Origin: a virus
Lineage: Duplodnaviria > Caudoviricetes
Reading direction: 5' to 3' (one strand)
Virus record (IMG/VR): IMGVR_UViG_2833778570_000001
Coordinates: 14,239 to 78,238 of that record
DNA length: 64,000 nt
Under the pieces are notes generated by a model. The model was not told where the DNA came from and did no database searches. It saw only the letters and a list, made by a program, of their open reading frames with translations. Both the position numbers and the translations under genes were made by a program. Positions 14,769 to 30,453 of the stretch are shown here, piece after piece. Position 1 is the first letter of the stretch, and every line of letters begins with the position of its first letter.

Positions 14769-16898
14769 CTAGATGGGCTGCTTGATGTTGTGGCTGAGGA
14801 GGCCCGCGGACTCGTAAGTGCGGGCCCCGTGCACGGTGAGCTTCACGACGGCGCCCTCCCCTTCCGGCGCCACGCGGCGGACCAAGCCCGGGCGCAGTCC
14901 CTCCAGCAGTTCGCCGGGACGCAATGCGCGCAGCTCCGTCCAGCCCGCGAAGCGCCGGTAGACGAGGTGGTTGGGCGTTGCCACCAGGACACGGCCGTCG
15001 GTGAGCTCCACCCGCCAGCGCGCGGCGCGGTGGATGGAGGCGGCCACCACCTCGAATACGCCCACGCGGCGCGTGTCCTCGTGCTGGGTGAGGACGCGCA
15101 TACCCGGGCGAAGGGACGCCGCTGGTACCTCCCGCCTGTCCTCCAGGGCAATGGGCGTCTCGGGCGCGACGCACGTGCCGCCCGTCCCGCCGGAGCCGCC
15201 TCCCTCGCCGCCCGAGGGCCCCCCGCCGAAAGGCGAGGCAGTGGACTTCGCGAAGTTGATGCCCACCCCGGCGTTGTAGACGGGCGAGAACCACATGGAG
15301 GCGCTCACGCCGTAGACGCCGTGCACCTCACAGAGGAGCGCGACGTACTCCCCCAGGTTCTGCCCCCAGAGTCCCGCGAGGGCCGCCGGGGACTGGAAGG
15401 TGTGGCTGATGGCGACGCGGTTGAGCGCGTTGCCCTCCACGGCCGAAGCGTACTTCCGGTCCGGCAGGGGGATGTAGCGCGTGCCCCGGTACGTGGCGCT
15501 GACGCTGCTGTAGTAGTCCACCTTGAGGTAGCGGAGCGCATCCAGGTTGTCGTCGATGCTGGAGGGCTGGATGAAGAAGTGGTGCACCAGCCAGGAGTGG
15601 ACGATGGGCGTCGTGTACCGGAAGTAGTCCGTGCACTGGACGTCCAGCCTGTCGATGAGCGGTGCGCCTCCGCGCACGCCCGTGTTGTTGCTGCCCCGGT
15701 AGTGGACGCGCCCCGCGGCCGACGTGCCGTCCAGCGCCTGGTTCGCCCTGAAGAAGGGCGTGTCCAGGAGGTAGCTGCCGATTTGGACGTTTCCACCGGC
15801 CGCCTTGAAGGCGGTGCCCACGTTGTCCAGCTTCGCTCCGGCCACGGGCACGCCGTTGCCGTCCTCCGCATAGTTGGACGTCTGGAGGGTGTTGGCCACC
15901 AGCAGGTCGAACGTCACCATCTTCCGCATGGAGACGGCGTCCAGGTACACGGCCTTCCCCGTGTCGGAATTGGCGGCGTTGATCTCGAAGTACAGCTGGA
16001 CGCCGGTGCACCCCGCCGGGCAGGTGCCCTTCACCTTCACGCGCTGGTACGAGGTGGTGAGCGTGACGAAGGTGCTCGTGGACTGGCCGCCATAGGCACC
16101 GCTGGCATCCTCCCAGAGGAGAATCAGGTTGGCGCCAGGCTGGGCGAGCGCGGCGGAGGACTTCACCCAGGCCTCCGCGTAGAAGGAGTCCCCCGCGGTG
16201 CATTTGATGCGTCCTCCCGGGGCAGCGCTTTGGAAGCCGCCGATGAAGTTGAGCCCCGTGAATCCACCACCGCTGGGCACCACCAGCTTGCGGCACCGGC
16301 GCCCCTCCTTCGCGTTGACGGGCTCCTCCACCAACGCGTCGCCCTCGGGGGACTTCCCCTGCGCATCCGCCTCCGAGTAGCCGTTGGGCACCAGGTTGTC
16401 CGTGGGCGGCAGCAGCAGGTGGGTGAAGCTGATGGCCGCCGTCGCCACCGCGGCACTGGTGACGGAGCTGGCCGACATGTGCCTGGCGTAGACGCTGCCG
16501 GTGGGGACGTTGGAGAGGTCCGCCACGGCCATGGTGACGGTGTCCGGGTCGGCCACCACGCCACCACCGAGGACACGCCAGCTGCTCTGGCTACCGTTGG
16601 TGTAGAGGGCCTGGACGGCGCACTGAACCTCCGTCTGCAGCGTCAGCTTCAGCGGCGCCACCCACCGCCTTTCCGAGGGGCCGAACTTCCGCGGCTCCAG
16701 CAGGTAGCTGTCGGTGTTGTTGGGGTCGCTGCCCTCGTAAACCACTACCTGGAAGCCCGAGAGGAGGTGCGCGGGGAGCACCTCGTCGTGCGTCCAGCGA
16801 ATGTCCAGGTAGCGCGACTTGATGAGCTGCGGAGAGCGGACGCCGTCCACCTCGCGGTCGTAGATGCCGGCCGCTTCCTCCTGCTCGCGCGAGCGCAT
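14769..16898 (-). CDS. tail tip/receptor-binding protein (gpJ C-terminal-like half) with C-terminal Hint domain
   Basis: CBM-like NLVPNGYSE module, gpJ-type LQTSNY..GAKLD segment, Gly linker, then CVAPETPI..ATPNH..LTVHGARTY..LSHN-IKQPI. Confidence 0.8.
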   Translation of the reverse strand: MRSREQEEAAGIYDREVDGVRSPQLIKSRYLDIRWTHDEVLPAHLLSGFQVVVYEGSDPNNTDSYLLEPRKFGPSERRWVAPLKLTLQTEVQCAVQALYTNGSQSSWRVLGGGVVADPDTVTMAVADLSNVPTGSVYARHMSASSVTSAAVATAAISFTHLLLPPTDNLVPNGYSEADAQGKSPEGDALVEEPVNAKEGRRCRKLVVPSGGGFTGLNFIGGFQSAAPGGRIKCTAGDSFYAEAWVKSSAALAQPGANLILLWEDASGAYGGQSTSTFVTLTTSYQRVKVKGTCPAGCTGVQLYFEINAANSDTGKAVYLDAVSMRKMVTFDLLVANTLQTSNYAEDGNGVPVAGAKLDNVGTAFKAAGGNVQIGSYLLDTPFFRANQALDGTSAAGRVHYRGSNNTGVRGGAPLIDRLDVQCTDYFRYTTPIVHSWLVHHFFIQPSSIDDNLDALRYLKVDYYSSVSATYRGTRYIPLPDRKYASAVEGNALNRVAISHTFQSPAALAGLWGQNLGEYVALLCEVHGVYGVSASMWFSPVYNAGVGINFAKSTASPFGGGPSGGEGGGSGGTGGTCVAPETPIALEDRREVPAASLRPGMRVLTQHEDTRRVGVFEVVAASIHRAARWRVELTDGRVLVATPNHLVYRRFAGWTELRALRPGELLEGLRPGLVRRVAPEGEGAVVKLTVHGARTYESAGLLSHNIKQPI

Positions 16899-16908
16899 GC
16901 CCTCCCGT

Positions 16909-19389
16909 TTAGGGAGGCGGCGTGGACGAAATCCCCAGCGTGAGGGTGGCCGGCACCGTGGGCACGGACACCACCAGGGCGCTCGCCGCGCCGGTGCTGT
17001 AGTTGCCCGAGGTGTCGATGGCCTTCACGTGCACCAGGTGGTTGACGCCCGGCGGCGGCAGTGCCCACTCGTAGGTGGTGGCGCGCACCTTGCCGATGAG
17101 GGTGCCTGCCTCCCAGCTGGCGCCGTAGCGCAGCTCGTAGGTGTCCCTGTCCAGGTCCGGCACCTCCGCCCAGCGCAGCGTCGCGGTGCTGCCGTTGAGG
17201 GCACAGGTGAGGCCCGTCACGTCGGAGGGCGGCGCAGCCTTGCCCACGACGGTGTAGCTGGCCGAGGCGTAGGTGGTGACGAGGCCGTTGAGGACGGCGG
17301 CCACCTGCACGGTGTACGCGCCCGGCAGGCAGTCCAGCAACTCCCAGTAGTGCGTCTGCACCGGCGTCTCCAACGTCCAGTTGCCGCCCTCGCGCTGCCA
17401 GCGCACCCGGTACTCGGTGGCGGTGGCCACCTGCGTCCACCGGGCCGTCGCCATGACTTTCACGCCGCCATTCGTCGTCTTGTACAGCGACTCGCCCACC
17501 GCAAGGCCTGCGGGTGGCGCAGACAAAGGCAGCACGGACGTAGGCAGCGGCTGCAGCTTCACTCCGTACTCCACCTCCGCGTACTTCCCCGGCTCGTGGC
17601 GCAGGGCGGTGATTTCGTAGAGGTGCGGCTCCACCTCCGCCACGTTGAGGATGCGCCAGAGGGTGGGCGTCAAGTCGGACGCGGCCAGCACCCAGACGGC
17701 CTGGGGCTGGGGCGCGGCAGAGAAGGGCGTGGCCACGGTGAGGGCGCGGTAGGGCGCCGGTGCGAGCGCGGCCAGCGGGCGCTCCTCCACGGTGCCATCC
17801 GGTAGCACTGCGGAGAGGGCGTACGTCTTCCCGGCTTCCAGGGTGACGTCCGCGTCGAACTCCACCTGGCTGGCGGTGGCAGCCACCACGCGCCCGCCCC
17901 ACCGGCGTCCGGCCCGGTACGGGTCCTGGAGCTTCACCACGGCGCCGGGGTTGCGCATGGCGCCCTCGAAGCCGGTGCGGAACGTCACCGTCTCCGTCTC
18001 CAGCCTCTCGGTGAGGAGGAGCCACCGGCCCACGCGCTGCGCCTGGCCCCGGGAAGTACAGCCGAGCGCCACCACCTCGGTGGGGTTGTAGCCGTAGGTG
18101 GCGAGGCCCTCCTCGTCGGTGACGTACTCCTGCGCCGCCTTGAAGTGGTTGTCCGGGTCATTCCACGTCACCAGCGCGACGGTGTGCCGCGCGCGCTTCC
18201 CGCTGGAGGCGTAGGTGAAGAGGCCGTCCACCACGTTGGCCGGCGTGAAGAGGTACTCGGCGTCGCGCGGCGCGTCCTGGGCGACGAAGACGGCGCCGGA
18301 GGCCCAGTACGTCATGCCTCTGAAAACGGACGCGAGGTTGTTGATGACCTTGTACGCGTCCTCCTGCGTCTGGAGGTAGAGGTTGCAGCGGAAGCGCGGC
18401 TCCGTGCCGCCCTTCCCGTCCGGCACCAGCTCGTCGCAGTACTTCGCCACCGTGTAGAGGCCCCATTTGTCCACCGCGGCCTCGTTGAGGTAGCGGCCCA
18501 GGCCGTAGCGCTTCGTCGTGAGGAGGTCGTAGAAGCACCAAGCCGGGTTGTCCGTCCAGGCCACCTTCCACGTGCCGTCCCAGGTGCCCTCGTACGTCCG
18601 GGCCACGGGGCTGTAGTTGCTGGGCACGCGCACCCGCAGCCCGCGAATCCGGTAGCTGCGCGTGGGGATGTTGCTGAACTGGCTGGCCGCCACCTGCAGC
18701 GCGCACAGCGCGGTGTTGGGGAAGCTGAGCTTCTCGTCCAGCAGCGTCGCGTAGGACTTCCAGATGACCTTGTTCTGCGTCGTCACGCTGTCCGCGTCCT
18801 CGCTGACGCGCGTGACGCGGATGTCCCAGGGCGGAGAGCCCGTCAGCTCCACGCGAAAGGTGCGCTCGTAGGGGCTGGTGCACTTCCCCCGGAAGAGTTC
18901 GGCGTCCTGGAAGGACTGCACCACGTACCCGCCCCCGTTGCTCTGCACAGCGATGGAGACGAGGACGCGGGTGGGCTTCAAGTCGCCCGTCGTGGGGTCC
19001 TGGTAGGTGAGCTGGGGCACCTGGAGGGTGACGCGCACGGCGTCCACCTCCGGGTCCGACACCGTGCGCACCACCGGCGTGGCGCGCTTCACCTCGACGC
19101 CCACGGAGTGCTCCGCCTCGCCGGAGGGGAAGCCTGGGATGTACTCCTGCGACTGGGTGCCCTTCACGTCGTACACGGTGACGCCCGTGAAGTTGAAAGT
19201 GCCGTCGGGATTCTGGATGGCGACGCCGTCCAGGTAGACGGACTTCAGCCCGTCCACGAGGCCCTGAATCTCCCCCTCGCATAGCAAGTCCACCACGCGC
19301 GCCTTGGAGCTGGACTTCAGTGTGTTGGGAGACTCGACAGGGGTGCGCTGAGCGCCGCCCTCCCCTTTTCCGCCGCTGCTGCCGCCCAT
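16909..19389 (-). CDS. central tail fibre / host specificity protein J (N-terminal part)
   Basis: DLLCEGEIQGLVDG, WTDNPAWCFYDLLT..RYGLG, EPRFRCN, F..ANVVDG.F.Y motifs of lambda gpJ family; FN3-like C-terminus. Confidence 0.92.
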   Translation of the reverse strand: MGGSSGGKGEGGAQRTPVESPNTLKSSSKARVVDLLCEGEIQGLVDGLKSVYLDGVAIQNPDGTFNFTGVTVYDVKGTQSQEYIPGFPSGEAEHSVGVEVKRATPVVRTVSDPEVDAVRVTLQVPQLTYQDPTTGDLKPTRVLVSIAVQSNGGGYVVQSFQDAELFRGKCTSPYERTFRVELTGSPPWDIRVTRVSEDADSVTTQNKVIWKSYATLLDEKLSFPNTALCALQVAASQFSNIPTRSYRIRGLRVRVPSNYSPVARTYEGTWDGTWKVAWTDNPAWCFYDLLTTKRYGLGRYLNEAAVDKWGLYTVAKYCDELVPDGKGGTEPRFRCNLYLQTQEDAYKVINNLASVFRGMTYWASGAVFVAQDAPRDAEYLFTPANVVDGLFTYASSGKRARHTVALVTWNDPDNHFKAAQEYVTDEEGLATYGYNPTEVVALGCTSRGQAQRVGRWLLLTERLETETVTFRTGFEGAMRNPGAVVKLQDPYRAGRRWGGRVVAATASQVEFDADVTLEAGKTYALSAVLPDGTVEERPLAALAPAPYRALTVATPFSAAPQPQAVWVLAASDLTPTLWRILNVAEVEPHLYEITALRHEPGKYAEVEYGVKLQPLPTSVLPLSAPPAGLAVGESLYKTTNGGVKVMATARWTQVATATEYRVRWQREGGNWTLETPVQTHYWELLDCLPGAYTVQVAAVLNGLVTTYASASYTVVGKAAPPSDVTGLTCALNGSTATLRWAEVPDLDRDTYELRYGASWEAGTLIGKVRATTYEWALPPPGVNHLVHVKAIDTSGNYSTGAASALVVSVPTVPATLTLGISSTPPP

Positions 19390-19390
19390 G

Positions 19391-20449
19391 TCAGTCCACC
19401 ACCGTCGGGTCCGCCTTCTTCACGTTGTGGCTGAGGAGGCCGTCGGAGACGTAGGTGTGCGCGCCGGCCACGGTGAGGCGCACCACGGGCCCGTGCTCGC
19501 CCCGCGTCACCTGGCGCACCACGCCCGGCCGCGTGCCCACCAGCCGCACGCCGGCCGAGAGGTGGCGCAGCTCCATCCAGGCGTCCTCCGTCCGCACGCG
19601 GTGGTTGCCGGTGGCCTCCAGGCGCCGACCGTCCTCCAGCTCCAGCAACCACCGCACGCCTTCGGCGGGCTCCGCAGCGGTGACGAGGAAGTCTCCCCAC
19701 TCCAGCGTCTCCTCGTCCTGGGTGCGCACCAGCATGCCCACCTGGACTTCGCCCGCGGGCACCTCGCGCCCGTCCGCCAGGAGAATCGGCACCCACGGCG
19801 CGGGGCACGTGCCGCCGCCCGCTGGGGTTCCGCCGGGCCCCGTCTGCCCGCTGCCACCACTGCCCCCGAAGCCGCCGTCGGACCACTCAGTGACGAAGCC
19901 GGCGGAGACGACGCAGCTGCCCACTTCCATCTCTCCGTAGCAGATGGGCACCGGGTGGCCCTGGGCGAGCGTGTTGACGGGGCCATTGAAGACGTAGCTG
20001 GGCTTGTTGGCGTCGTCCTCGTCGGGCCCGGTGGCGGTGGGCGGGGCGAAGAGGAGCTGCGAGACGCCGCCCACCACCAGGGAAATGCCCGCGGTGATGA
20101 GGGGCACGCCCGCGCCGTACCCGTAGACGGTGAGGACGGCGCCGGCGGCGATGAGCACCGCGCCCGCTACCACCTGGAACCAGCCGGACTTCGCCCCGGC
20201 CAGGGCCGGCATGAAGGTGAGGACACGCGCGCCGGTGGGCATGCCCAGGTCGTCCTCACCGACGTCCCGCTTGCCCGCGAAGACGTGGTAGCCGGGCTCG
20301 CTGTTCTCGGCCAGGTAGCGGCGGAAGCCGTCGCAGACGGCGGAGAGGGCCCGCACCGCCTCCGCAGGCGAGGGCACGGAGAGGTCCAGCTTCCACACGC
20401 GCCCGAAGCGCTTCCCCAGGGGCCCGCCCAGGACGATGGTCGTCAGCAT
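19391..20449 (-). CDS. tail assembly protein I (ubiquitin-like) fused to a C-terminal Hint domain
   Basis: LGGPLGKRFGRVWKL...SPAEAVRAL, SYVFNGPVNT.AQGHPVPICYG (gpI); then Gly linker and CPAPW..ATGNH..LTVAGAHTY..LSHN-VKKADPTVVD. Confidence 0.88.
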   Translation of the reverse strand: MLTTIVLGGPLGKRFGRVWKLDLSVPSPAEAVRALSAVCDGFRRYLAENSEPGYHVFAGKRDVGEDDLGMPTGARVLTFMPALAGAKSGWFQVVAGAVLIAAGAVLTVYGYGAGVPLITAGISLVVGGVSQLLFAPPTATGPDEDDANKPSYVFNGPVNTLAQGHPVPICYGEMEVGSCVVSAGFVTEWSDGGFGGSGGSGQTGPGGTPAGGGTCPAPWVPILLADGREVPAGEVQVGMLVRTQDEETLEWGDFLVTAAEPAEGVRWLLELEDGRRLEATGNHRVRTEDAWMELRHLSAGVRLVGTRPGVVRQVTRGEHGPVVRLTVAGAHTYVSDGLLSHNVKKADPTVVD

Positions 20450-21174
20450 CGGGAAGCGTGCCTCACGACGCGTTGGGTGATGCGCTCCCAGAAGCCGGAG
20501 TACGTCTCCCGGCCGGACAGGCGCCCCATGACGTGGTGCAGGAGGACGTCCCCGCCCAGGTACACGCCTGCGTGGTTGGGCACCGGGGCGCGCAGTTGCA
20601 TGAGGAGGACGTCGTGCTCGCGCGGGGCTTTGCCCGTCACGTCCACGAAGCCCGCGCGGCCGAAGCCCTCCAGGTAGAGGTTGCCGCCCTTCGCCCACCA
20701 GTCGTCCGGGCGCTCGAAGTCGGGCAGCGCCAGGCCCAGGCGCTCCCAGTAGTAGTCCTGGATGAGGGAGTAGCAGTCGAGGACGCCATGGCTGAAGGTG
20801 CGGCCCACCAGCGGCGGGCGGTAGCCGTCCGGGAAGTAGAGGCGCCAGTGCCCCACCGGGACGTTGAGGATGAGCCAGGGCAGGCCCCAGCGCTCCATCA
20901 TCACCCTGTCGGCCTCACTCGGTTCCGGCGCGGCGTTGGGGTGGGAGTGCACCACCGCCACCACCTCGCCCTCCCCTTCTGCCTGAGCGTAGTCCTCCGG
21001 AGCTAGGACGAAGTGCGCCTGGCCGGCGGCGAGGTTCCGGCAGGGGCGGTACCGCTGGGCGCCGTCCACCAGCACCACGAGGCCGCAGGACTCGCGGGGG
21101 TAATCGGCCTGGGCGTGGGTGAGCGCGGCGCTCAGGACGTCATCAGCCAGCGTCAGCCGGCAGGGGTCGCTCAT
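20443..21174 (-). CDS. tail assembly protein K (JAB/MPN plus NlpC/P60)
   Basis: ESCG, VHSHP..PSEAD (JAMM); LDCYSL, HAGVY, LHH (NlpC/P60). Confidence 0.92.
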   Translation of the reverse strand: MSDPCRLTLADDVLSAALTHAQADYPRESCGLVVLVDGAQRYRPCRNLAAGQAHFVLAPEDYAQAEGEGEVVAVVHSHPNAAPEPSEADRVMMERWGLPWLILNVPVGHWRLYFPDGYRPPLVGRTFSHGVLDCYSLIQDYYWERLGLALPDFERPDDWWAKGGNLYLEGFGRAGFVDVTGKAPREHDVLLMQLRAPVPNHAGVYLGGDVLLHHVMGRLSGRETYSGFWERITQRVVRHASRC

Positions 21175-21307: not shown

Positions 21308-22042
21308 ATGACCTGGCAGCAATATGAACGAGCCATTCTGGAGAAGTTCTGGCGCGAGTTTCAGCCACCTCACTTCCGCGTGGAGCCATCAGGGGGAAAC
21401 AGGCATTATTATACCGGTCGCCATTCAGGTGAGCTGAGACAACTGGATGTAGCAGTCTACCGACGAGACGCGACTGCTCCGTTCTTGGTGGTTGACGCAA
21501 AGCATTGGCAGAACACTCTCGACATCAGCGACGTCGAGTCGTTCATAAGCTTCGTGGACGATGTCGGAGCCACCCAGGGCGTGCTTGTTGCGAGTTCTGG
21601 TTTCTCTGAAGCTTCACCCCGCCGAGCGGCAGGAGCACCTGTGCCGATTCATTTGGAGATCGTCACGGCGAAGGAGGCATTGGAGTTGGATTGGCTCTGG
21701 CTGGGGCGAAAGCTCTTCCCGCAGGATTGGGCCTACCACCGTCATTTGGGCCATGCACTTCGCCTTATTGAAGGCAGCGGATCCGCAGCAGCGATTTCAG
21801 ATGCGGTGGAAGGGGTTCCATTTGAGGAATGGGAGGCGGCCGTCAGCTTCGCGATCAACCAACACCGCAGAGAAGCGCAGCATTTTCTCATTTGGGTAGC
21901 GACAAAGCACGACGACAGTGGATGGAGGTTCAATGCCGCCCGCCATCTCGCAGAAATCGGACTGCTTACTGAATCCATCCGAAGCCAAGTCGTCGCCCTT
22001 GAAACGGACCCAACGGCATGCGCGATACTTGATGAAATGTAG
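21308..22042 (+). CDS. Mrr-like PD-(D/E)xK restriction endonuclease (moron)
   Basis: QLDVAV..LVVDAKHW..DISDVESF..D.GAT.GVLVASSGFS typical of Mrr_cat; lower GC, opposite strand. Confidence 0.75.
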   Translation: MTWQQYERAILEKFWREFQPPHFRVEPSGGNRHYYTGRHSGELRQLDVAVYRRDATAPFLVVDAKHWQNTLDISDVESFISFVDDVGATQGVLVASSGFSEASPRRAAGAPVPIHLEIVTAKEALELDWLWLGRKLFPQDWAYHRHLGHALRLIEGSGSAAAISDAVEGVPFEEWEAAVSFAINQHRREAQHFLIWVATKHDDSGWRFNAARHLAEIGLLTESIRSQVVALETDPTACAILDEM

Positions 22043-22262
22043 AAATCACACAGCAGCTATCCGCTGAACCGTCCAAGGTAGGCCCTTTCCATCCACCAAC
22101 CGAACGGCCACCGCCGTCCGCGCCAGCCATTCACTTGCACTGGCTTGCCTCGGCAAAGAGTCCCGGGACCTCCCGGAGCGTCGCCATGCCTTTGTAGGAG
22201 GCCGAAGGGGAGAGCCCAGAAGACGGCTCCATGCGTCGTACGTCTACTCCGGGAGCTCGTAC

Positions 22263-23525
22263 CTGAGCCATCCCCTCATATGAAACCGAGCGCTTCTTTG
22301 AAGACAGGGTGCTGATGGAGGAGTTCGGCGAAGCGCTCGACGAGAGGCCGCAATCGCTCCTCCTTCATCATGGGAATGGCTTGGTAATACATGCAGCCCT
22401 GCCGGAAGAGCGAGTAGGTGCGTGTCTTGACGGTATTGGCCTTCAAGCCCTTCTCCATCCCGAGACTCTCCCCCGCGGCGCCCAGCAGCGTCAGCAGCAC
22501 CTGGGCCAGGGCGCTCACCAGCAGCAGCCTGTCTCTGCGCTCGGGACTCTTCACGCGCACCGTGGACAGTCCCATCCCGAATCTCAAGTCCTTGACGTCC
22601 CGGAACGTCTCCTCGCACGAGAAACGCCGGGCGTAGAGGTCCACCACCTGGCGCGCGCTGGCGGCTCCCAGGCTGGTGGCCAGACACCACGGCTCCTTCA
22701 TGCCCTTCTGGCGCACCAGCACCACCGCGGGCACCGGCGTGCGGTCCGCCGTCACGTGCACGTCCGTCAGCTTCTTGGCGTGCCCGCTGGTGGGAATCCA
22801 CCTGGCCGCGGGACACCCGGTGCCGCCGGCCACCTCCACCCGCACGTCCTTGCGAAAGCGCACCACGTACTCGAAGCCCGCCTGGGCCAAAAGGGCGTAC
22901 AACCGCTGGTCCGCGAAGCCCCGGTCCGCCAGCACCGTCACCTTCACCCCTTCGGGCACGCACTCCTTGAGCCGCAGCAGCAGCTCATCCTCCGCCTGGG
23001 CGCGGTTGCCCGCCAGCGCGCTCTTCTGCAGCGTCAGCCACAGCAGGGGCGTGGTGCGTCCATGCGAGGTGACGAGGCTGGCCACCAGGGTGGTGTGGTC
23101 ATCGGCCTCGAAGTCCGTCCAGTCCAGCGCCACCAGCGCTTCGGTGCGCTCGGCCAGCACGTACGGCACCCACGAGGCCGCCAGCTTCCACACGTCCACC
23201 GCCTCGTTGGACAGCAGTCGGTCCACCTGCTTGATGCCGTGCTTCTCACGCCGCCTCGCGCCCACGCCAGCGCCTGGCCAATGGCGTGCACCGACAGCGA
23301 CGCGGCGTGCACCACCCCCAACGTCGCGTGCGCCAGCGACAGCACCCTCTTGGCGTGCAGGTCCTCCTCGAACAAGCTCTCCAGGAACCTCAGCACCTGC
23401 TCTTCGTTGATGGCCACCTTGCGTCCCAGCATGGCCTCTCTTCCTGCTCCCCACCACTCCGCCTCGCACGGGCCTGGCAGGCAGGCGGCTGGCGATCAGC
23501 TTGCCGAAATGAGGGGATCTCTCAG
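22263..23525 (-). mobile_element. IS4-family insertion sequence, IS10-like ends, 1263 bp
   Basis: 17-bp terminal IRs ctgagccatcccctcat / ctgagagatcccctcat (2 mismatches); 9-bp TSD agctcgtac at 22254-22262 and 23526-23534. Confidence 0.92.
22276..23432 (-). pseudogene. IS4 DDE transposase with a frameshift near 23250
   Basis: N-part ..HAIGQALAWARGG and C-part KHGIKQVDRLLSN..VALDWTD..LADRGF..YARRFSCEETFRDVK lie in different frames. Confidence 0.8.
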
Positions 23526-24724
23526 AGCTCGTACAGCAGGGTGTCGAGCAGTGCGATCCGACATCTCCAGACCCGCGCCTCAACCGGCACCAGTGGACGT
23601 GAAGCGGCAAACCAGGGAAAGGACCAAAGGGTGTCGAGGAACTTGACGTAGGTGGTCGCGCTGGTCGGGACAGTTCCGAAGACCTGCCAGAGACGCCTTC
23701 GGTTGGCGTTGTTGACCGAGAGGAAGACGTCCGGCCGTTTCATGGCGAGAAGGCGGGTGGCAGCTCCCAACCCAACACCCCTCAGAGCAAGAACTCCGTC
23801 GAGGTAGGCCTCAACCACGTCGTGCGACACACGCCCCCTGACTGGAACAGCATCCAAGAAGCGCCCCAACTGCTTGGGAGAGTCGGTGGTGAGCTGCTTG
23901 AAGTAGCCCGCCCCTTGCATTCGCCCAAAGTAGCCGGTGGTGTCCCGCCCCCATCCAGCCACCAGCTTGCGCTCATCTTCTGGCATTGAAGCGAACGCTG
24001 GCCAACGATGGAACGCTTCCCGACAGGCTTCGGCCTCCCCTAGATAAGAGCCGTCCGGGTGATCGAAAACGCGAATCTCAAAACCGTTAGCCAGAGCCCG
24101 CCTCTCCTGACGAGCGATGAGGGCATAATATCCCGCCCAGTCGCAACTTAGGTCTCCCAGGCACACTGCGGCGTTAGCAGGCAAAGGCTGGGGCGCCTTC
24201 TTTATTGGAGGCTTAGGCCTGCTTTCATACAATTCATGATATGCGGCCAACCATGCCGCGCTTGGCGTGAATGCACGCGGGTCGTGCCAAGCTGCATCCA
24301 CAAACGAAAGCAGGGTGCCCGCAGCATTGCACTGAGCATCTCCCTCAAAAAGGACGTTCAGTTCCGTGTTCCCATGAAAGCCTCCCCGGGTGAAGTTCGA
24401 AGATCCCCAGAGAGCACGCACCTGCCCTCCGCGTCGTCCGACAAGCAACTTCGGATGGAAGACACCAGAGGTGTCCTCAATGACACGAAGGACTTTAGCA
24501 TTGCCAAGTTCGACCAGAACCTGGGGCTCGGTCTGAGCGAAGTGGATCCCGATAACGGCCCGGCGGACACGCTCAAGGGGTAGGCACTTCCAATGCTCTG
24601 CTGTTCCTCCAGCCGAGCTAGCCCACGCGTAAACCAAGTCAATATCCGAGGCCCAAGCCACAAGCCTGCGAAGCGCATCCATCGTATCTGCTGTAGATGC
24701 CAAGACCGTGAAATTCTCTGCCAT
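23522..24724 (-). CDS. PLD-like (HKD) domain nuclease, restriction-endonuclease-like; stop codon supplied by the IS end
   Basis: FHPKLLV..LWGSSNFTRGGF..NTELNV motif; removing the IS restores the C-terminus YELPE-stop. Confidence 0.8.
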   Translation of the reverse strand: MAENFTVLASTADTMDALRRLVAWASDIDLVYAWASSAGGTAEHWKCLPLERVRRAVIGIHFAQTEPQVLVELGNAKVLRVIEDTSGVFHPKLLVGRRGGQVRALWGSSNFTRGGFHGNTELNVLFEGDAQCNAAGTLLSFVDAAWHDPRAFTPSAAWLAAYHELYESRPKPPIKKAPQPLPANAAVCLGDLSCDWAGYYALIARQERRALANGFEIRVFDHPDGSYLGEAEACREAFHRWPAFASMPEDERKLVAGWGRDTTGYFGRMQGAGYFKQLTTDSPKQLGRFLDAVPVRGRVSHDVVEAYLDGVLALRGVGLGAATRLLAMKRPDVFLSVNNANRRRLWQVFGTVPTSATTYVKFLDTLWSFPWFAASRPLVPVEARVWRCRIALLDTLLYEL

Positions 24725-24980
24725 ACAATTGGCCTCCAGGCCAAAGAGCGTCGCAGAAAATGAGACATCCAACCCAGATGCCCCACCGCGTCTACCGCCG
24801 TTGCGTCACCAATGCCGACCAAATGACCATTATGCTGTTGGGAAAAATAGCAGTGCTCCCAGAGCCCCAGAACTGTGTGGACATGACTTTGGCGGCTCAC
24901 ACCATAGGTCATATTATCCAGAGAGGTACCGGTCTACTTCAACGACCGACCAGTAGACTTCCGCGAAGAAGAAGTCGCTC

Positions 24981-25889
24981 TCAGATGACCTCAAACGCAG
25001 GTTCTGCGTTCTCTGTGACACGAGTCGCCAGCACGCTTTTCCGCCGCAAGGGGTCCGCCTTCGACCGGTCCTTCGCGCTCTTCTGGACGAGGTCGGCGCG
25101 GTGAATCACCTCGCTCGCCTGAGCCTTCACATCCTTCACGGCCACGAGGCCACACGAGGATGACAGGTGACGAGGTTCCCCTTTCACTTTGACCGTTTCC
25201 CCTGAGAGCGATGCCAGCGCTGCACCCATGCGCCTCTGAGCCTGTTCCAGTGGCGTTGCTGGCATAACAACGACGACCTCGTCACCGCCCTTCCGGTAGG
25301 CGTCCCCAACATCGGACACGGCCTTCTCGATGGCATGGAAGAAGGCCTTGATGGCTTCGTCCCCCGTTGCATGGTCGCCGTCTTCGTTGAACGCCTTGAG
25401 CCCGTTCATGTCGAGGTAGGCCACCGACACCGGCGACTCCTCCTGGATGTTCATGATGGCAATCGCCAAGTCGCGCTCCGCATGGCGACCGTCATAAAGG
25501 ATTCCAAACGGTTCATGCAGACGAGTGGAACGAAGCTGGTCCTGCAGCTCCGCCAACCGGAGACGGCCCAAGTGCCCCAGTTCCAACTCTACACTCTGGC
25601 CATCTAGGAGCCTTGAGACAAACTCCGCGCGACCGAGTCGCTCCCTCCGCTCAAGTTCCTCTGCAACCGCGTCGAGGCCGCCACTGCCTGGCACGTAAAG
25701 GCTCTTCCTGATGTCGGGGCCATTGATCATCCCCCTAAAGAAGAGGGAGAGGACCATCTGTACTTCCTTTGCAGCCTCGAATGATCCCCCTCCCCCTCTC
25801 GGGAATTGCCTACTGACCCACCGAGTCTGCTCGAACCGGGCAAGAAATTGTAATTCCAGGAAGCGAGCATCATTTTTGTACTCTGCCAT
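24981..25889 (-). CDS. GGDEF (diguanylate cyclase-like) protein with unknown N-terminal domain (moron)
   Basis: VAYLDMNGLKAFNE..DHATGDEAI, AYRKGGDEVVV, SSSCG, RADLV. Confidence 0.85.
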   Translation of the reverse strand: MAEYKNDARFLELQFLARFEQTRWVSRQFPRGGGGSFEAAKEVQMVLSLFFRGMINGPDIRKSLYVPGSGGLDAVAEELERRERLGRAEFVSRLLDGQSVELELGHLGRLRLAELQDQLRSTRLHEPFGILYDGRHAERDLAIAIMNIQEESPVSVAYLDMNGLKAFNEDGDHATGDEAIKAFFHAIEKAVSDVGDAYRKGGDEVVVVMPATPLEQAQRRMGAALASLSGETVKVKGEPRHLSSSCGLVAVKDVKAQASEVIHRADLVQKSAKDRSKADPLRRKSVLATRVTENAEPAFEVI

Positions 25890-26022: not shown

Positions 26023-26718
26023 TCAGCGGATGAGTCCCACTGCCGGGAACCCTCCGTACGGCAGGACGGCAGCGACTCCGAAGCGCAGCTTGCAACTGGC
26101 GAGGCGCTTCCCGCACCGGTCCTCTATGGCGCTGGACGTAGGCGTGTCGTTCACCTTCGCCACTGGCGGCCCCGCGTAGCCGCAGCCCTCGCCGCGGTAC
26201 TCCCAGGGGCACAGCTGCGTGATGATGCGCAAGGGGATGCGGACGCCATCCAGGTCGCACTTCGCAGCCAGGCTGAACTCGATGACGTGCTTGTTCTCCA
26301 CCGTCTTCTGGTCCACCACGAACTCGTCGTCCGGGAAGGCGTCCAGCGGCGAGGCGGTGGGGTTGATGCCTCCGGGGAAGTTCACCGCATCCAGGTAGCG
26401 GACGAAGGTGCGCTTCCGCAGGACGCGCGCGCCCAGCAGATCGTTCAGGTCCCTCGCCATGGCGCCGATGGTGCCGGCGACGTTGGCGAGCGTCAGGGTG
26501 GGCCGGGGTAGCCGCCCCATGCCGGACTTGTCGAAGCCCTTCACCTGGATAGCCCAGGGCTCGTACGCCATGCCCTGCCAGACGACGGGCCCGCGGAGGC
26601 CGTTGGTGCCCGCGTGGAAGTGGCTGACGCCCCCGCCAGGCAGGTTGGTGGCGTCCAGGACGAAGAGCTCCACGAGGGCCCCTGCGTCCAGCCTTTGGAT
26701 GTCGCTGGCGATGCTCAC
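26023..26718 (-). CDS. minor tail protein L
   Basis: VELFVLD, VWQG..Y, PRPTLTLAN, RKRTF.RYLD..NF and Cys cluster CPWEYRGEGC..D.CGKRLASCKLRF. Confidence 0.92.
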   Translation of the reverse strand: MSIASDIQRLDAGALVELFVLDATNLPGGGVSHFHAGTNGLRGPVVWQGMAYEPWAIQVKGFDKSGMGRLPRPTLTLANVAGTIGAMARDLNDLLGARVLRKRTFVRYLDAVNFPGGINPTASPLDAFPDDEFVVDQKTVENKHVIEFSLAAKCDLDGVRIPLRIITQLCPWEYRGEGCGYAGPPVAKVNDTPTSSAIEDRCGKRLASCKLRFGVAAVLPYGGFPAVGLIR

Positions 26719-27302
26719 CCTGCCTCCTCCTGGAACGTCGCGGTGAAGTCGTAGGCGTTGAAGCCCTTCGCGGTGCGGTGCCACTCCTCGCACACGACGT
26801 GCGCCGCCAGCTCGCCCGCGCCGGTGAAGGTGAGCGCGGCCCCGGTGGCTGGCGCCACAGCGAAGGTGACGAGCCCCGAGGCGGAGAGCACGTAGGCGGT
26901 CCCCGCCACCTGGGCGACGCCCGCGACGTAGATGGTCGGCGGCGCCGTCCAGTTCGTGGCCGGCACCAGCAGCTCCGGCGTCTCCGGGGACAGCGGTCGC
27001 CGCAGGAGCCACTGCGTCCGGGCCCCGTCCCCCGCCCCGAAGGGCTGCACGGCGACGGACCAGGCCGTGTCCGGGGTGACGAACTCGAAGGGCTCGACGC
27101 CCGCGCGTGCGCGCAGGAAGGCCTCCAGGGCGTCCGCGTTTAACTTCGCGAGGTTAGAGAACTGGAGGGCCCAGCGCCGCAGGACGGGGTTGAGGCCGTC
27201 CCCTGAGCGCTGCGAATAGCCGTCGCCGAACTGCGCCCTGCGCACGCGCGGCGCCGCGTCCGCCTGGGCGCCATAGTCGGGGGTGAAGGGGAAGCGCTCC
27301 AT
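26715..27302 (-). CDS. minor tail protein M with an internal inserted domain
   Basis: FGDGYSQR..DGLN..W, FLRARAGVEPFEF.P and C-terminal TATFQE of gpM; extra FGAGDGARTQW..LVTFAVAPATGA segment. Confidence 0.85.
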   Translation of the reverse strand: MERFPFTPDYGAQADAAPRVRRAQFGDGYSQRSGDGLNPVLRRWALQFSNLAKLNADALEAFLRARAGVEPFEFVTPDTAWSVAVQPFGAGDGARTQWLLRRPLSPETPELLVPATNWTAPPTIYVAGVAQVAGTAYVLSASGLVTFAVAPATGAALTFTGAGELAAHVVCEEWHRTAKGFNAYDFTATFQEEAG

Positions 27303-27615
27303 GCCTACCGCCTCCCGCCGAGATCCAGCCTGCTCATCCAAGCCATCTTCGGCGGAGGCGTGGACGACGGCCCCAGAGCGGCACTTCTGCCTGGCACCAG
27401 TTGGATACCAGGGTTTGTCCGCGCTTTATGTGGCGAGCCCCTGCGATGAGAGTGCGCCTGTCGTAGGTGTTCACCGCGCCCCGCCCTGGTTCGGAGCTGA
27501 CCCGGGCCAGCGAGCGTAGACAACGAGGCGGGCCACTCCGGCCCGATCGTCGAAAGCTGGTATGAGAGTTGATGGCTGGCTATCGACCAGCATGTCCATT
27601 CACTGGAGCATTTGA

Positions 27616-28407
27616 ATGCCTTCGAAGCACTTCCTGACTGCTTGCTCAGTTCTCACGCTCTTGGTCGCACTCCCCACGACTCCGGCACTGGCTGAGCCGT
27701 GGTATGGGGATTCCCCCGATCTGGCCTTGCGGAGCTGCCAGCATCTCTATGCCATGGGCGTCCGGCGCTCAGGCGTCTACTTTCTCAAGCCCGATGGCAC
27801 GCAGGCCCTCACTACGTACTGCGACATGGAGACGCAAGGGGGAGGGTGGGCGATGGTCTACAACAGCGTGCTCGGCACCAACACAACCGACTTCTGGAAC
27901 ATCCCCTATGCGGAGCGCCTGGGCCGCCGCGGCCGACCCAGCTTGGATTCCAACTTCTATGAGGGCAGCCTCTATCTCTACCGCAAGACAGAGTTCACAG
28001 ATGCTGTCAGGTATATGGATGTCGTCGAGGATCTTCGAGGCAAGACTGCCATCCTTTTCACGGCCCGGACTGATGGGTTCAATTCCAGCACGATGAGGTT
28101 CCATGGGCCCCAGCAACTTGGTGGTAGTCTTGCTGTCTACGACAGGCAGTTTTCTTCGGGATGGGCGTCTCCGGATTACGATGGCGATGCTACTTCTCTG
28201 GCGCAGTGTTCGCTCAATTACGCGAATGTCACGCAGCATTACTCTGGCTGCTGGGCATATAATCTCGGTGCCGATGCCGAAGCCCCAATTGAGGATGGCA
28301 GGGTTGGACCTCATTTGAATAGCTCCGTGGCGGTTGAACTCGGGCTTGTAACCGACGGCACGCAGCACACGCGTGTCCGCCGCATTACGCGCTTCGTGAG
28401 GTGGTAG
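27616..28407 (+). CDS. secreted fibrinogen-like YCDxxxxGGGW domain protein (moron)
   Basis: Signal peptide; RSC..SGVYFLKPDG..TYCDMETQGGGWAMV. Confidence 0.8.
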   Translation: MPSKHFLTACSVLTLLVALPTTPALAEPWYGDSPDLALRSCQHLYAMGVRRSGVYFLKPDGTQALTTYCDMETQGGGWAMVYNSVLGTNTTDFWNIPYAERLGRRGRPSLDSNFYEGSLYLYRKTEFTDAVRYMDVVEDLRGKTAILFTARTDGFNSSTMRFHGPQQLGGSLAVYDRQFSSGWASPDYDGDATSLAQCSLNYANVTQHYSGCWAYNLGADAEAPIEDGRVGPHLNSSVAVELGLVTDGTQHTRVRRITRFVRW

Positions 28408-28439
28408 TGCCAACGTAGGGCTCTCGTCAGACGGACGGA

Positions 28440-28849
28440 GCCCGGCTGTACGCGGCGGGCCACGCTGGTGGCGGATGCGCGGGCGGGCGCGAAGCTGCTC
28501 TTCCGCGCGTCGCTGCTGGCCGCGGGCACGAGCCGCGAGGAGGCCTTCCTCGCCGAGGCGCTGGAGCGCGACGCGACCTTCGCGCCCGCGCGAATCCGCC
28601 GGGGCGAGCTGCGGCTGACCACGGATGCCCGCGCCGCGCTGGAGGACTTTGAGGCGGTGCTGGCCCTGTCGCCCGCGGACGTGGATGCGCCGCGAGGCGG
28701 AGCGCGTGGCCCTTACGCGCAAGGCCGCCACCGCCGTCGTGCGCGCAAGCCGCACGGACGCCGCCCGGCGGCTGCTCGCGGAGTTCTGCGCGCGCACGCC
28801 GGAGGATCTGGACGCGCGGCTGGAACTGGCCGGGCTGCACCGCAGGTAG
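28440..28849 (+). pseudogene. TPR-like gene fragment, apparently frameshifted
   Basis: ARIRRGELRL..AALEDFEAVLALSPADVDA, then in another frame PEDLDARLELA; no clear start. Confidence 0.45.
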
Positions 28850-28854
28850 CCGTC

Positions 28855-29058
28855 GCCGCGGGGCTGTCGCGGGTGCTGAGCGACGTGCCGGTGCGGACCG
28901 GCTACCTGGAGGCCCAGGTGGGCGCGTCCTCCCTCACGGGCGCATACGCGCGCCTGGAGGGCGGGGCGCGGCTCCGGCAGAACCTGGGCATCTTCGGCTT
29001 TGCGGAGGGCAACGCCCGCGAGCGGATGGCTGGCATGGGCATCCGGTACACGTTCGGC
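28855..29058 (+). repeat. 204-bp diverged copy, inverted relative to 10190-10393 (lysis-terminal gene)
   Basis: First 64 bp identical, remainder highly similar; an imperfect version of the downstream hairpin is also retained. Confidence 0.9.
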
Positions 29059-29166
29059 TCGCAGTACAGCAGCCCGCTCCGAAGCATTGGGGCGAGCTGC
29101 TGCCCTCACCAAGCAAGCAGTGTCCTCGCAGAAAATCACCAAGAACAAACTGCGAGAATTTGGCAC

Positions 29167-30453
29167 CTAGTGAGTTTCTGGCCCAGCCACGACAGCGCCT
29201 GAACTCTTGCGGCCAGCATGGATAATATAGTTCAACGCCATATTGGCAGGCCGGGTCTCAGTATCGCCCCCCCCGACCCCGTGACCATGGCCCCCGCCGG
29301 AAATACCGTGCCCACGGTCCAAACGCGGCTCTCCGGGAGTATTGTCGGCACTATGCAGCGTCTGTACCCCATCCGACTCCAAAACAATGCCGCCATGCGA
29401 GTGAGAGCCATCGCCAGTCACTTTGAACGGCACCTTAGGCATGGCTGTCGCATAACCCTGAACCGATCCGAGCTGCCGGTTCGCGCCATCCACATCGCGA
29501 TTTTCCCCATCTCCACTTCCATTCAACCCTCGCACAAAACGCCCACGCAGATCAGGCACACGGAAGTGCTCAAACTTAGCCCCATAGACGTCTTGAATAA
29601 CGACGGCGAGCTCCGGATATGCCTTTGCACTGTAGAACCCCCCATCACACAGTAGCCAACCATCAGGGGGCGTCGTCCCGGCAAACGCCACGACAGATCC
29701 AATCGGAATTGGCGCTGCCTCTCTCTTAACCGGCGGAGCAAGCGCAGGAAAATGATACACAATCTGCCCTTCCTCCGAATCAACCGTAAGCGTTGCGCTC
29801 TGCGCGACGCGGAATCCACCCTCAAGCCCCATCTTGCGAGAGCAGACCATATTAACTGCTCTATTCGTAATGGTCCCCCCACGCAGAGCCATTTCTGCCA
29901 GAGATCCAGTGCAAGAAAATGCCCCCGCAGGACTCATCTGAAGTCGTTCGAGTCGCACAGAGGAGCCTTGGCTTCCATGACTAAGTGACATGGCAAACGC
30001 ACCATAGTCTGGGCGCATCGAGTAGCGAACCTGAAGTCCTCGAACTCCAAGCGCCATGCACTGATTAAATGCATCCCACGCCTTGGGATTGATACGTTTG
30101 ATATTTACCTGCAACTCACTCTTGACGTTCACAAGCTCAGAGTCTTCTCGCGTAAACAGCTTGGCCGTAGCTTCAGCTTCTTCTTTCGAGTAATGGCCGC
30201 CCAGCGAGAATGGTCCAAAGCCGACTCCCCCTCCTCCCCCGGCAGCCGCGCTTTGCGAACGACTCTCGCTCTCAAGGATCGCAGCCCGAACGTCCGAGAG
30301 CTGAAGCGACGAATTCTTTTCGCTGTAATAGTCGTAGACCCCCTGTCGCAGTATCTCCACACAATAGCTCTGCTCTGCATGAGCCGAACTCGCCATTGTC
30401 GTCACAGCGACCATGAGCGCAACACAGTTCACTTGGAGTCGCGTCCGAATCAT
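29167..30453 (-). CDS. secreted protein with C-terminal phage tail collar domain (moron)
   Basis: Signal peptide ending SAHA-E; PIGSVVAFAG..PDGWLLCDG..YPEL..PDLRGRFVRG..ETRPANMALNYII; lower GC. Confidence 0.8.
   Translation of the reverse strand: MIRTRLQVNCVALMVAVTTMASSAHAEQSYCVEILRQGVYDYYSEKNSSLQLSDVRAAILESESRSQSAAAGGGGGVGFGPFSLGGHYSKEEAEATAKLFTREDSELVNVKSELQVNIKRINPKAWDAFNQCMALGVRGLQVRYSMRPDYGAFAMSLSHGSQGSSVRLERLQMSPAGAFSCTGSLAEMALRGGTITNRAVNMVCSRKMGLEGGFRVAQSATLTVDSEEGQIVYHFPALAPPVKREAAPIPIGSVVAFAGTTPPDGWLLCDGGFYSAKAYPELAVVIQDVYGAKFEHFRVPDLRGRFVRGLNGSGDGENRDVDGANRQLGSVQGYATAMPKVPFKVTGDGSHSHGGIVLESDGVQTLHSADNTPGEPRLDRGHGISGGGHGHGVGGGDTETRPANMALNYIIHAGRKSSGAVVAGPETH

What the first reader, a model, noticed from the sequence alone, without database searches (positions are those of the whole stretch)
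19391..20449. Ubiquitin-like tail protein gpI carries a C-terminal Hint (intein-like) self-processing domain
Seen: after the normal gpI end (..GSCVVSAG) there is a Gly-rich linker and a 128-aa domain (19424-19807). It has Cys1 (GGT|CPAP), block B ATGNH, block F VRLTV..HTY and terminal SHN, followed by only VKKADPTVVD. Established: lambda gpI is a beta-grasp/ubiquitin-like protein next to the JAB protease gpK. Hint domains form a thioester at Cys1, and those with a non-nucleophilic +1 residue (Val here) behave as BIL-type cleavage domains rather than splicing inteins. Ubl-Hint fusions are known from ciliates. Inference: this gpI may self-activate its C-terminus as a thioester with no E1 enzyme, allowing release, or covalent ligation to another virion protein or small nucleophile, during tail tip assembly.
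Basis: partly seen in the sequence, partly recalled or inferred. Interest (0 to 1): 0.85.

Follow-up and report, generated by a model that had tools for sequence, protein, structure and literature searches.

The report
Self-removing Hint caps phage tail plug
The tail-tip plug protein (gpI) of a myxobacterial prophage really does end in an intein-like self-processing domain, but that domain is a mobile cap shared with many phage tail proteins, and it probably cuts itself out and may leave a short peptide joined through a lysine, rather than activating the protein's ubiquitin-like domain.

Summary
Observation confirmed: gpI (19391-20449, minus strand) ends in a Gly linker, a true Hint domain (C215-N342; model pLDDT 97, Z about 19 to inteins/BILs) and 10 residues. 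A 53%-identical second copy caps the distal tail fibre (14787-15173). All 8 full-length gpI found in 301 Myxococcia-class genomes carry it; none of 1,420 GenBank phage gpI matches does.

The 'E1-free Ubl activation' idea fails on anatomy. The beta-grasp domain ends at residue 85-86, 129 residues before Cys1, and in lambda and F-pyocin only the C-terminal plug is resolved in the particle. The thioester would sit on the plug end.

The Hint belongs to a mobile family capping gpI, gpJ and fibres. Cys1, block-B His and Asn are invariant (137/137), block-F Asp is usually Lys/Arg, and Lys at +1/+2 occurs in 130/137 (controls 2/20; Arg never substitutes). Best reading: a type-A BIL variant that excises itself and is resolved by its own tail, probably the Lys epsilon-amine. 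Plain cleavage is the main rival. No chemistry was tested. I found no paper describing it. The scan noted the same module earlier on other phage fibres.

The parts
20443..21174 (-). gpK: JAB peptidase (E28, H76-S-H78, S86, D89 intact) plus NlpC/P60 domain (C134, H201); the candidate protease that removes the gpI Ubl
   Evidence: Pfam Prok-JAB E 3e-19, NLPC_P60 E 5e-10; residues invariant in 9 loci; role proposed in PMC1779556, not tested here
20192..20449 (-). gpI residues 1-86: N-terminal beta-grasp (MoaD/SAMP-like) domain ending at G85-A86
   Evidence: VIA Z 9.9 to SAMP1 4hro (rmsd 2.4, 80 aligned), 9.1 to MoaD 1fm0_D, model range 1-86; G85 invariant
19886..20191 (-). gpI residues 87-188: two hydrophobic helices and the tail-tip plug/anchor segment that homologues retain in the virion
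   Evidence: helices H90-108 and H114-133; Kyte-Doolittle peaks 1.98 and 1.91; aligns to lambda gpI 9e7m chains of 90 aa
19808..19885 (-). Gly-rich disordered linker (189-214), ending at T214, the predicted acyl-donor residue
   Evidence: pLDDT under 50 over 173-213; sequence
19424..19807 (-). Hint domain, 128 aa: C215, T280/H283 (block B), R324 (F4), H331 (F13), H341-N342
19391..19423 (-). 10-residue C-flank; K344 (19418-19420) is the family-conserved +2 Lys
   Evidence: Lys at +1/+2 in 130 of 137 family members and 54 of 54 with tails of 6 aa or less
16909..19389 (-). gpJ-like tip protein, proximal half (826 aa), no Hint
   Evidence: FNIII-A_GpJ E 9e-38, Phage-tail_3 E 1e-26
14769..16898 (-). 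709-aa distal fibre; matches the C-terminal half of a fused 1467-aa gpJ in a related phage (L006)
   Evidence: blastp E 1e-78 to L006 gpJ; a separate post-gpJ fibre gene also occurs in L003-L005, L008, L011
14787..15173 (-). second Hint domain (C576, T641/H644, F4 K686, H703-N704) followed by a 5-residue tail with K706 at +2
   Evidence: 53% identical to the gpI Hint, E 1e-37

Best explanation
The Hint is a mobile, self-excising C-terminal module (a type-A BIL variant) on the virion-retained plug of gpI, not on its ubiquitin-like domain. Inferred steps: (1) C215 attacks the T214-C215 bond, helped by T280/H283, to give a plug~thioester. (2) The thioester is resolved by an amine from the domain's own short C-flank, most probably the epsilon-amine of K344 (branched isopeptide intermediate, Lys standing in for the Cys/Ser/Thr+1 of inteins), less probably the alpha-amine of V343 freed by Asn cyclisation. 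(3) N342 cyclises and releases the 14-kDa Hint. The product is a normal-sized plug capped with about 1 kDa of tail peptide, with hydrolysis as a side reaction. Separately, gpK probably removes the N-terminal Ubl at G85/A86 (literature hypothesis). The same module processes the distal fibre. Shown: fold, intact catalytic set, conservation pattern, mobility. Inferred: every chemical step and any benefit to the phage.
For: Fold and catalytic residues are intact. In 137 non-redundant family members Cys1, block-B His and terminal Asn are 137/137 and the penultimate His 136/137. Removing a C-terminal domain needs only the Cys1 side (Hedgehog lacks the Asn end; own knowledge), yet His-Asn is kept even where 2-6 residues follow, so C-terminal chemistry is under selection. 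Lys is at +1/+2 in 130/137, and in 54/54 with tails of 6 aa or less. Where +1 is not Lys, +2 is Lys in 98/105 and Arg in 0, although Arg outnumbers Lys inside the domains (924 vs 697), which points to the amine rather than the charge. Control: bacterial PT-HINT domains have Lys there in 2 of 20 valid rows, and Asn/Asp at F4 in 20/20; this family has Lys/Arg at F4 in 99/137 and no Asp among its seven commonest residues there. Precedent: Tetrahymena BIL2, one of the closest structures (Z 18.9), splices via a Lys epsilon-amine isopeptide (PMC8616854), and type-A BILs ligate by aminolysis (PMC4031507). 48/137 members sit inside long proteins or in tandem arrays, where ligation would keep the chain whole. 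Hint-less gpI are nested within the Hint-bearing clade, so the mature plug does not need the domain itself. Purifying selection: dN/dS 0.17-0.21 in four of six pairs, fibre Hint 0.13.
Against: No activity was measured. Characterised type-A BILs give mostly cleavage products. Lys amines are poor nucleophiles at neutral pH, and the +1/+2 register varies, which is loose for a catalytic nucleophile. The conserved Lys could be structural or a general acid/base. The search profile contained the +2 Lys column (a few bits of at least 120, too small to explain 98:0, but not zero). Family members are related, so the counts are not independent events, and the controls include paralogues. dN/dS is about 0.6 in two pairs. 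Loss of the F4 Asp could weaken N-terminal activity.
Confidence: 0.47

Rival explanations
1. Plain self-cleavage: the thioester is hydrolysed (or thiolysed), leaving a free T214 C-terminus. The Hint is a removable maturation cap, like the S74 intramolecular chaperone at fibre ends, or a near-neutral mobile passenger tolerated in Gly-rich ends. The Lys is structural or helps catalysis.
For: Cleavage dominates in studied type-A BILs. 89/137 members lie within 20 residues of the C-terminus. The domain is gained or lost within one gpI clade and moves between gpI, gpJ and fibres (9 label changes, at least 3 forced by starred branches). S74 precedent.
Against: It does not explain why His-Asn and specifically Lys (never Arg) are kept ahead of 2-6-residue tails, nor the internal and tandem copies.
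Confidence: 0.28
2. Trans-ligation: the thioester is attacked by a Lys or N-terminus of another tip protein (gpJ, gpL, tape-measure C-terminal piece, a neighbouring gpI) or by a small nucleophile, covalently stapling or modifying the tail tip.
For: BIL2 can conjugate to other proteins. Two tip proteins of the same phage carry the module, repeatedly (window, L003-L006, L008). The gpI C-terminal strands thread through gpJ hub domains in lambda. A second, divergent Hint-like extension occurs on three gpI elsewhere in the tree (hhalign probability 61%, E 8e-5).
Against: A cis Lys two residues from the active site would out-compete outside amines. Hint-less close relatives exist. No conserved acceptor was identified. 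There is no Hedgehog-like substrate-binding region and no F4 Asp.
Confidence: 0.12
3. The domain stays attached and works as a structural decoration, solubility or trimerisation aid, with little or no chemistry.
For: The host proteins are trimeric tip proteins. F4 Asp is absent and Pro is common at position 2. The linker could place the domain outside the tip.
Against: Catalytic residues are invariant while surface residues diverge to about 35-55% identity. Solved Hint domains are autoprocessing units. The copies-of-Hint complex prediction could not be run.
Confidence: 0.08
4. One reading: the Hint activates the Ubl of gpI as a thioester without E1 (as in ciliate BUBL), and gpK's JAB reverses the conjugation.
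For: A real beta-grasp domain, an intact JAB next door, and structural closeness to BUBL BIL2.
Against: The Ubl C-terminus is 129 residues from Cys1 here and 118-139 in homologues. In lambda and F-pyocin only the C-terminal part of gpI is seen in the particle. Most family members have no Ubl. The -1 residue is not constrained to Gly (38/137). A Hint can only activate the residue directly before Cys1 (established mechanism).
Confidence: 0.02

Closest known systems
Type-A bacterial intein-like (BIL) domains / Pfam PT-HINT (C. thermocellum BIL, PDB 2lwy)
   Same: Hint fold (Z 18.6, rmsd 1.7, 126 aligned), about 130 aa, Cys1, block-B TxxH, His-Asn end, no Cys/Ser/Thr at +1, no endonuclease.
   Different: F4 is Lys/Arg (Asn in 2lwy; Asn/Asp in 20/20 myxobacterial PT-HINT controls). 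A Lys is nearly fixed at +1/+2. It sits at the extreme C-terminus of phage tail-tip proteins behind a Gly linker, not before a toxin domain. The domain has no Pfam PT-HINT hit at E 0.05.
Tetrahymena BUBL1 BIL2 (PDB 6tmm/6y75), ATP-independent ubiquitin-like conjugation
   Same: Fold (Z 18.9); reported isopeptide ligation through a Lys epsilon-amine (PMC8616854); found in a protein that also contains a Ubl.
   Different: In BUBL the Ubl C-terminus is the N-extein end and a second Ubl supplies the Lys. Here the Ubl is 129 residues away, the donor is a Gly-rich linker, and the candidate Lys is in a 10-residue tail.
Class 1 mini-inteins (Npu/Ssp DnaB, gp41-1, Mtu RecA)
   Same: Best structural matches (4o1r Z 19.8, 29% identity), blocks A, B, F, G.
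   Different: +1 is Val (C/S/T in only 9/137 relatives), no F4 Asp, and not inserted in a conserved enzyme site.
Peptidase S74 intramolecular chaperones of phage fibres and spikes
   Same: C-terminal, self-removing module on trimeric tail proteins.
   Different: Unrelated fold and chemistry (Ser-Lys peptidase, triple beta-helix; own knowledge). No trimerising role is shown for the Hint.
Lambda gpI / F-pyocin PA0640 tip plug (TAPI family)
   Same: Residues 1-188 are homologous, with the same M-L-K-I-J gene order.
   Different: No Hint: none of 1,420 GenBank phage matches covers 80% of the query.

Membership tests
Hint superfamily | Hint horseshoe beta-fold | tested here: met
   pLDDT 97.2; Foldseek E 8e-10; VIA Z 19.8, rmsd 1.8, 128 aligned
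Type-A BIL | Cys/Ser at position 1 and block-B TxxH | tested here: met
   C215, T280, H283
Type-A BIL | Terminal His-Asn without Cys/Ser/Thr at +1 | tested here: met
   H341-N342-V343; C/S/T at +1 in only 9/137 relatives; definition from PMC4031507
Type-A BIL | Match to the curated PT-HINT profile | tested here: inconclusive
   No hit for the window domain; 7 of 13 close relatives match at E up to 0.05, best 3.5e-8
Type-A BIL | Asn/Asp at block F4 (typical in the solved example and controls, not a formal criterion) | tested here: not met
   R324; Lys/Arg in 99/137 vs Asn/Asp in 20/20 controls
Type-A BIL | N- and C-terminal autocleavage and some splicing in vitro | not testable with these tools
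   needs expression and MS
Class 1 intein | Cys/Ser/Thr at +1 | tested here: not met
   Val; A, L, I, W, T in gpI homologues
Class 1 intein | Insertion splitting a conserved host domain | tested here: not met
   gpI homology ends at residue 188; only 10 residues follow the Hint
Class 3 intein | Block-F Cys / WCT motif and no N-terminal Cys | tested here: not met
   F4 is Arg and Cys1 is present
BUBL (Ubl-BIL fusion) | Ubl C-terminal Gly directly before Hint Cys1 | tested here: not met
   129-residue gap; 118-139 in homologues
BUBL (Ubl-BIL fusion) | Isopeptide ligation via a Lys epsilon-amine | not testable with these tools
   suggested by Lys conservation, no assay
Hedgehog Hint (Hog) | F4 Asp and a C-terminal sterol-recognition region | tested here: not met
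   R324; 10-residue tail
Lambda gpI / TAPI | N-terminal beta-grasp with C-terminal Gly, Gly-rich helices, TAPI-C, between gpK and gpJ | tested here: met

The most novel reading that the evidence does not exclude
A widespread, undescribed phage subfamily of Hint domains performs Lys-branch protein splicing. Its own +1/+2 lysine epsilon-amine replaces the Cys/Ser/Thr+1 nucleophile, possibly helped by the basic F4 residue, and so installs isopeptide-linked caps or cross-links on gpI, gpJ and fibres during tail-tip maturation. That would be a new splicing mechanism class and a new virion modification.
Probability: 0.35. Interest if true: 0.85.

Novelty: new variant of a known kind. Interest (0 to 1): 0.62.

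Why it matters
Self-removing C-terminal modules on phage tail proteins are known as S74 chaperones; a Hint version would add thioester chemistry to tail-tip maturation. gpI is the plug that holds the tape-measure protein until infection, and this version appears to be trimmed at both ends by different means (gpK at the Ubl, Hint at the plug end). If the conserved lysine is the nucleophile, this is a natural 128-residue, ATP-free isopeptide ligase and a splicing route outside intein classes 1-3, useful for making branched or ubiquitin-type linkages. It can be tested in E. coli with a handful of point mutants. If it only cleaves, it is a modest annotation point: an unannotated mobile BIL subfamily in tail genes.

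Tried and rejected
Ubl activation without E1: rejected on domain order and virion structures. GGT|C as a ubiquitin-like motif: rejected, the -1 residue varies. Recent within-genome duplication of the two Hints: rejected; they are about 53% identical, and gpI Hints of related myxobacterial phages are closer to each other (60-65%) than to the fibre Hint of the same phage (45-54% in the window and L005), with L006 about equal (59-60%). Frameshift or artefact: rejected. No further close Hint copies in the 78-kb record. Pfam and PHROG have no family for the domain. Five literature searches aimed at a Hint on phage tail proteins found none; the hits read concerned terminase or RNR inteins, or the ordinary word 'hint'; the library lacks most subscription papers. 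ESM Atlas gave only generic viral Hint clusters below 0.9, a lead only. The fibre N-terminal part has no solved sequence relative. The gpI tree used P0001 plus 67 of the 120 other gpI rows and the Hint tree only 12 of 48 internal domains; both are quick, unrooted trees, so gain versus loss is not determined.

Full report
Setting. The window is part of a 78-kb virus record. Its gpI is 96% identical to a Corallococcus sp. AB030 protein and 93% to a locus in C. carmarthensis CA043D, so it is most likely a Corallococcus temperate phage or prophage. The minus strand carries a lambda-type tail module: tape measure, gpM, gpL, an inserted cassette, gpK (JAB + NlpC/P60), gpI, gpJ and a 709-aa fibre.

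Observation. The 352-aa gpI matches tail assembly protein I over residues 2-188 (PHROG 32 E 2e-54; lambda gpI E 1e-21). Profile libraries see the domain only faintly. An AF2 model (pLDDT 97.2) matches Npu DnaB intein (Z 19.8, rmsd 1.8, 128 aligned), Tetrahymena BIL2 (Z 18.9), C. thermocellum BIL (Z 18.6) and Hedgehog (Z 18.5), while unrelated folds score 3.5 or less. A second copy, 53% identical, ends the fibre gene at 14787-15173.

Conservation. About 17 other gpI-Hint fusions at 38-96% identity occur in Corallococcus, Myxococcus, Pyxidicoccus and metagenomes. In 301 genomes of the class, all 8 full-length gpI found carry an intact Hint. None of 1,420 GenBank phage records with a gpI match covers 80% of the query, so no deposited phage shows this fusion. 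dN/dS for the Hint is 0.17-0.21 in four of six pairs and about 0.6 in two; the Ubl is more constrained (0.03-0.08 in close pairs).

The ubiquitin idea fails on anatomy. The full-length model has three separate parts. The first is a beta-grasp domain at 1-86 matching SAMP1 (Z 9.9) and MoaD (Z 9.1-9.5), whose C-terminus aligns with G85-A86. The second is two hydrophobic helices plus a plug segment, disordered in isolation. The third is the Hint. Cys1 is 129 residues after the Ubl Gly here and 118-139 in ten homologues. A Hint activates only the residue directly before Cys1 (established mechanism), here T214. In lambda only gpI 134-222, or 101 onward, is resolved in the tail tip (PMC12617516; PMC11101478). 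In F-pyocin the N-terminal domain is proteolytically removed before the tip joins the tube (bioRxiv 10.64898/2026.02.24.707460). Iyer et al. proposed that gpK's JAB releases the Ubl (PMC1779556); the JAB and NlpC residues are intact here. The Ubl and the Hint therefore act at opposite ends of the plug.

A mobile family. A profile of 13 domains finds 137 proteins at E up to 1e-30 and 2,101 at 1e-10 among 1.84 billion representatives. Most top hits end in Gly linker, Hint and a short tail, on gpJ-like proteins, fibres and other tail proteins; others are internal or tandem. Related phages carry it on gpI and fibre (L003-L005, L008), gpI and a fused gpJ (L006), or fibre only (L011). On a tree of the domains, gpI copies are interspersed with gpJ/fibre copies (9 changes, at least 3 forced by well-supported branches). 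On a gpI tree, six Hint-less proteins lie within the Hint-bearing clade, and three distant gpI carry a divergent Hint-like extension (hhalign 61%, E 8e-5, a lead only). The module is optional and exchangeable, which fits a unit that leaves the mature protein. The trees are unrooted and do not tell gain from loss.

The mechanistic signal. In 137 non-redundant domains, Cys1, block-B His and the terminal Asn are invariant. Cys/Ser/Thr at +1 occurs in 9, F4 is Lys/Arg in 99, and Lys is at +1 or +2 in 130, against a 3.3% background. All 54 domains with six or fewer trailing residues have this Lys; when +1 is not Lys, +2 is Lys 98 times and Arg never. Myxobacterial PT-HINT controls have Lys there in 2 of 20 valid rows and Asn/Asp at F4 throughout (the script printed 2/21 with one mis-parsed row; paralogues included). 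Simply shedding a C-terminal domain would need neither the Asn nor a Lys. Type-A BILs cleave mostly but can ligate through the freed alpha-amine (PMC4031507), and BUBL BIL2 is reported to splice through a Lys epsilon-amine (PMC8616854). I therefore infer N-S shift at T214/C215, capture by K344 (or the V343 alpha-amine), Asn cyclisation and release of the Hint, leaving a plug capped by about 1 kDa. That the basic F4 residue lowers the pKa of this amine is speculation. Caveats: nothing was assayed, the profile included the +2 column, and family members are not independent.

Odds. Self-excision with own-tail ligation 0.47 (about 0.35 epsilon-Lys, 0.12 alpha-amine); plain cleavage or near-neutral cap 0.28; ligation in trans 0.12; retained inert or chaperone domain 0.08; Ubl activation 0.02. 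Self-processing of some kind is thus about 0.87.

Novelty. It works like a type-A BIL and meets that group's formal criteria, but differs at F4, in the fixed Lys and in its context. It fails membership of class 1 and class 3 inteins, Hedgehog and BUBL. Literature searches found no description on phage tail proteins. Earlier notes of this scan report the same Gly-Hint-Lys module on other phage fibres and baseplates; they are unchecked AI notes and not independent support. One of them (e1-5648047) gave the lead of splicing through a basic residue, which I then tested by counts. Verdict: real feature, new variant of a known kind, interest 0.62.

Noticed in passing
window 14787-15173 (-): Second Hint of the same family at the end of the distal fibre; F13 is Arg instead of His, F4 is Lys, +2 is Lys.
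   Followed up: yes
window 14769-19389 (-): gpJ is split into an 826-aa proximal gene and a 709-aa distal gene 11 nt apart; one related phage (L006) has them fused in a 1467-aa protein ending in the Hint.
   Followed up: partly
window 21308-25889: About 4.7 kb inserted between gpL and gpK: Mrr-like nuclease (21308-22042 +), DDE transposase (22276-23610 -), PLD-like protein (23522-24772 -) and GGDEF protein (24981-25889 -). The same slot holds a KAP/AAA NTPase in L005 and another gene in L011, so it looks like a cargo hotspot.
   Followed up: partly
window 27616-30453: Between tape measure and gpM: a fibrinogen-C domain protein (27616-28407 +) and a tail-collar domain protein (29167-30453 -).
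   Followed up: no
window 26715-27341 (-): gpM carries a DUF2460-like insertion (208 aa); homologues in L006-L008 and L011 are 375-839 aa long, with no hit to this Hint profile.
   Followed up: partly
proteins P0049, P0098, P0081: Distant gpI with a different, divergent Hint-like extension (Cys1, no block-B His, ending His-His-Asn then Lys at +1 or +2); possibly an independent acquisition.
   Followed up: partly
proteins P0021, P0037: gpI homologues with an unrelated C-terminal extension of about 140 aa and no Pfam hit, so the gpI C-terminus tolerates appended domains.
   Followed up: no
proteins P0149, P0151, P0154, P0159, P0160, P0187: Tandem arrays of Hint domains separated by 2-8 residues that usually include a Lys.
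   Followed up: no
L010:3977-5110 (P0039); P0123, P0158: A Hint 58% identical to the gpI copy is fused to an unrelated helical protein with no PHROG match.
   Followed up: no
protein P0008; loci L031, L032: P0008 has an apparent frameshift inside the Hint; L031 and L032 are broken gpI remnants in myxobacterial genomes.
   Followed up: no
L051 (G415:C653:1860-2252): A PT-HINT-type domain (F4 Asn) that also follows a poly-Gly run and ends His-Asn-Met-Lys: a similar junction layout in another Hint subfamily.
   Followed up: no
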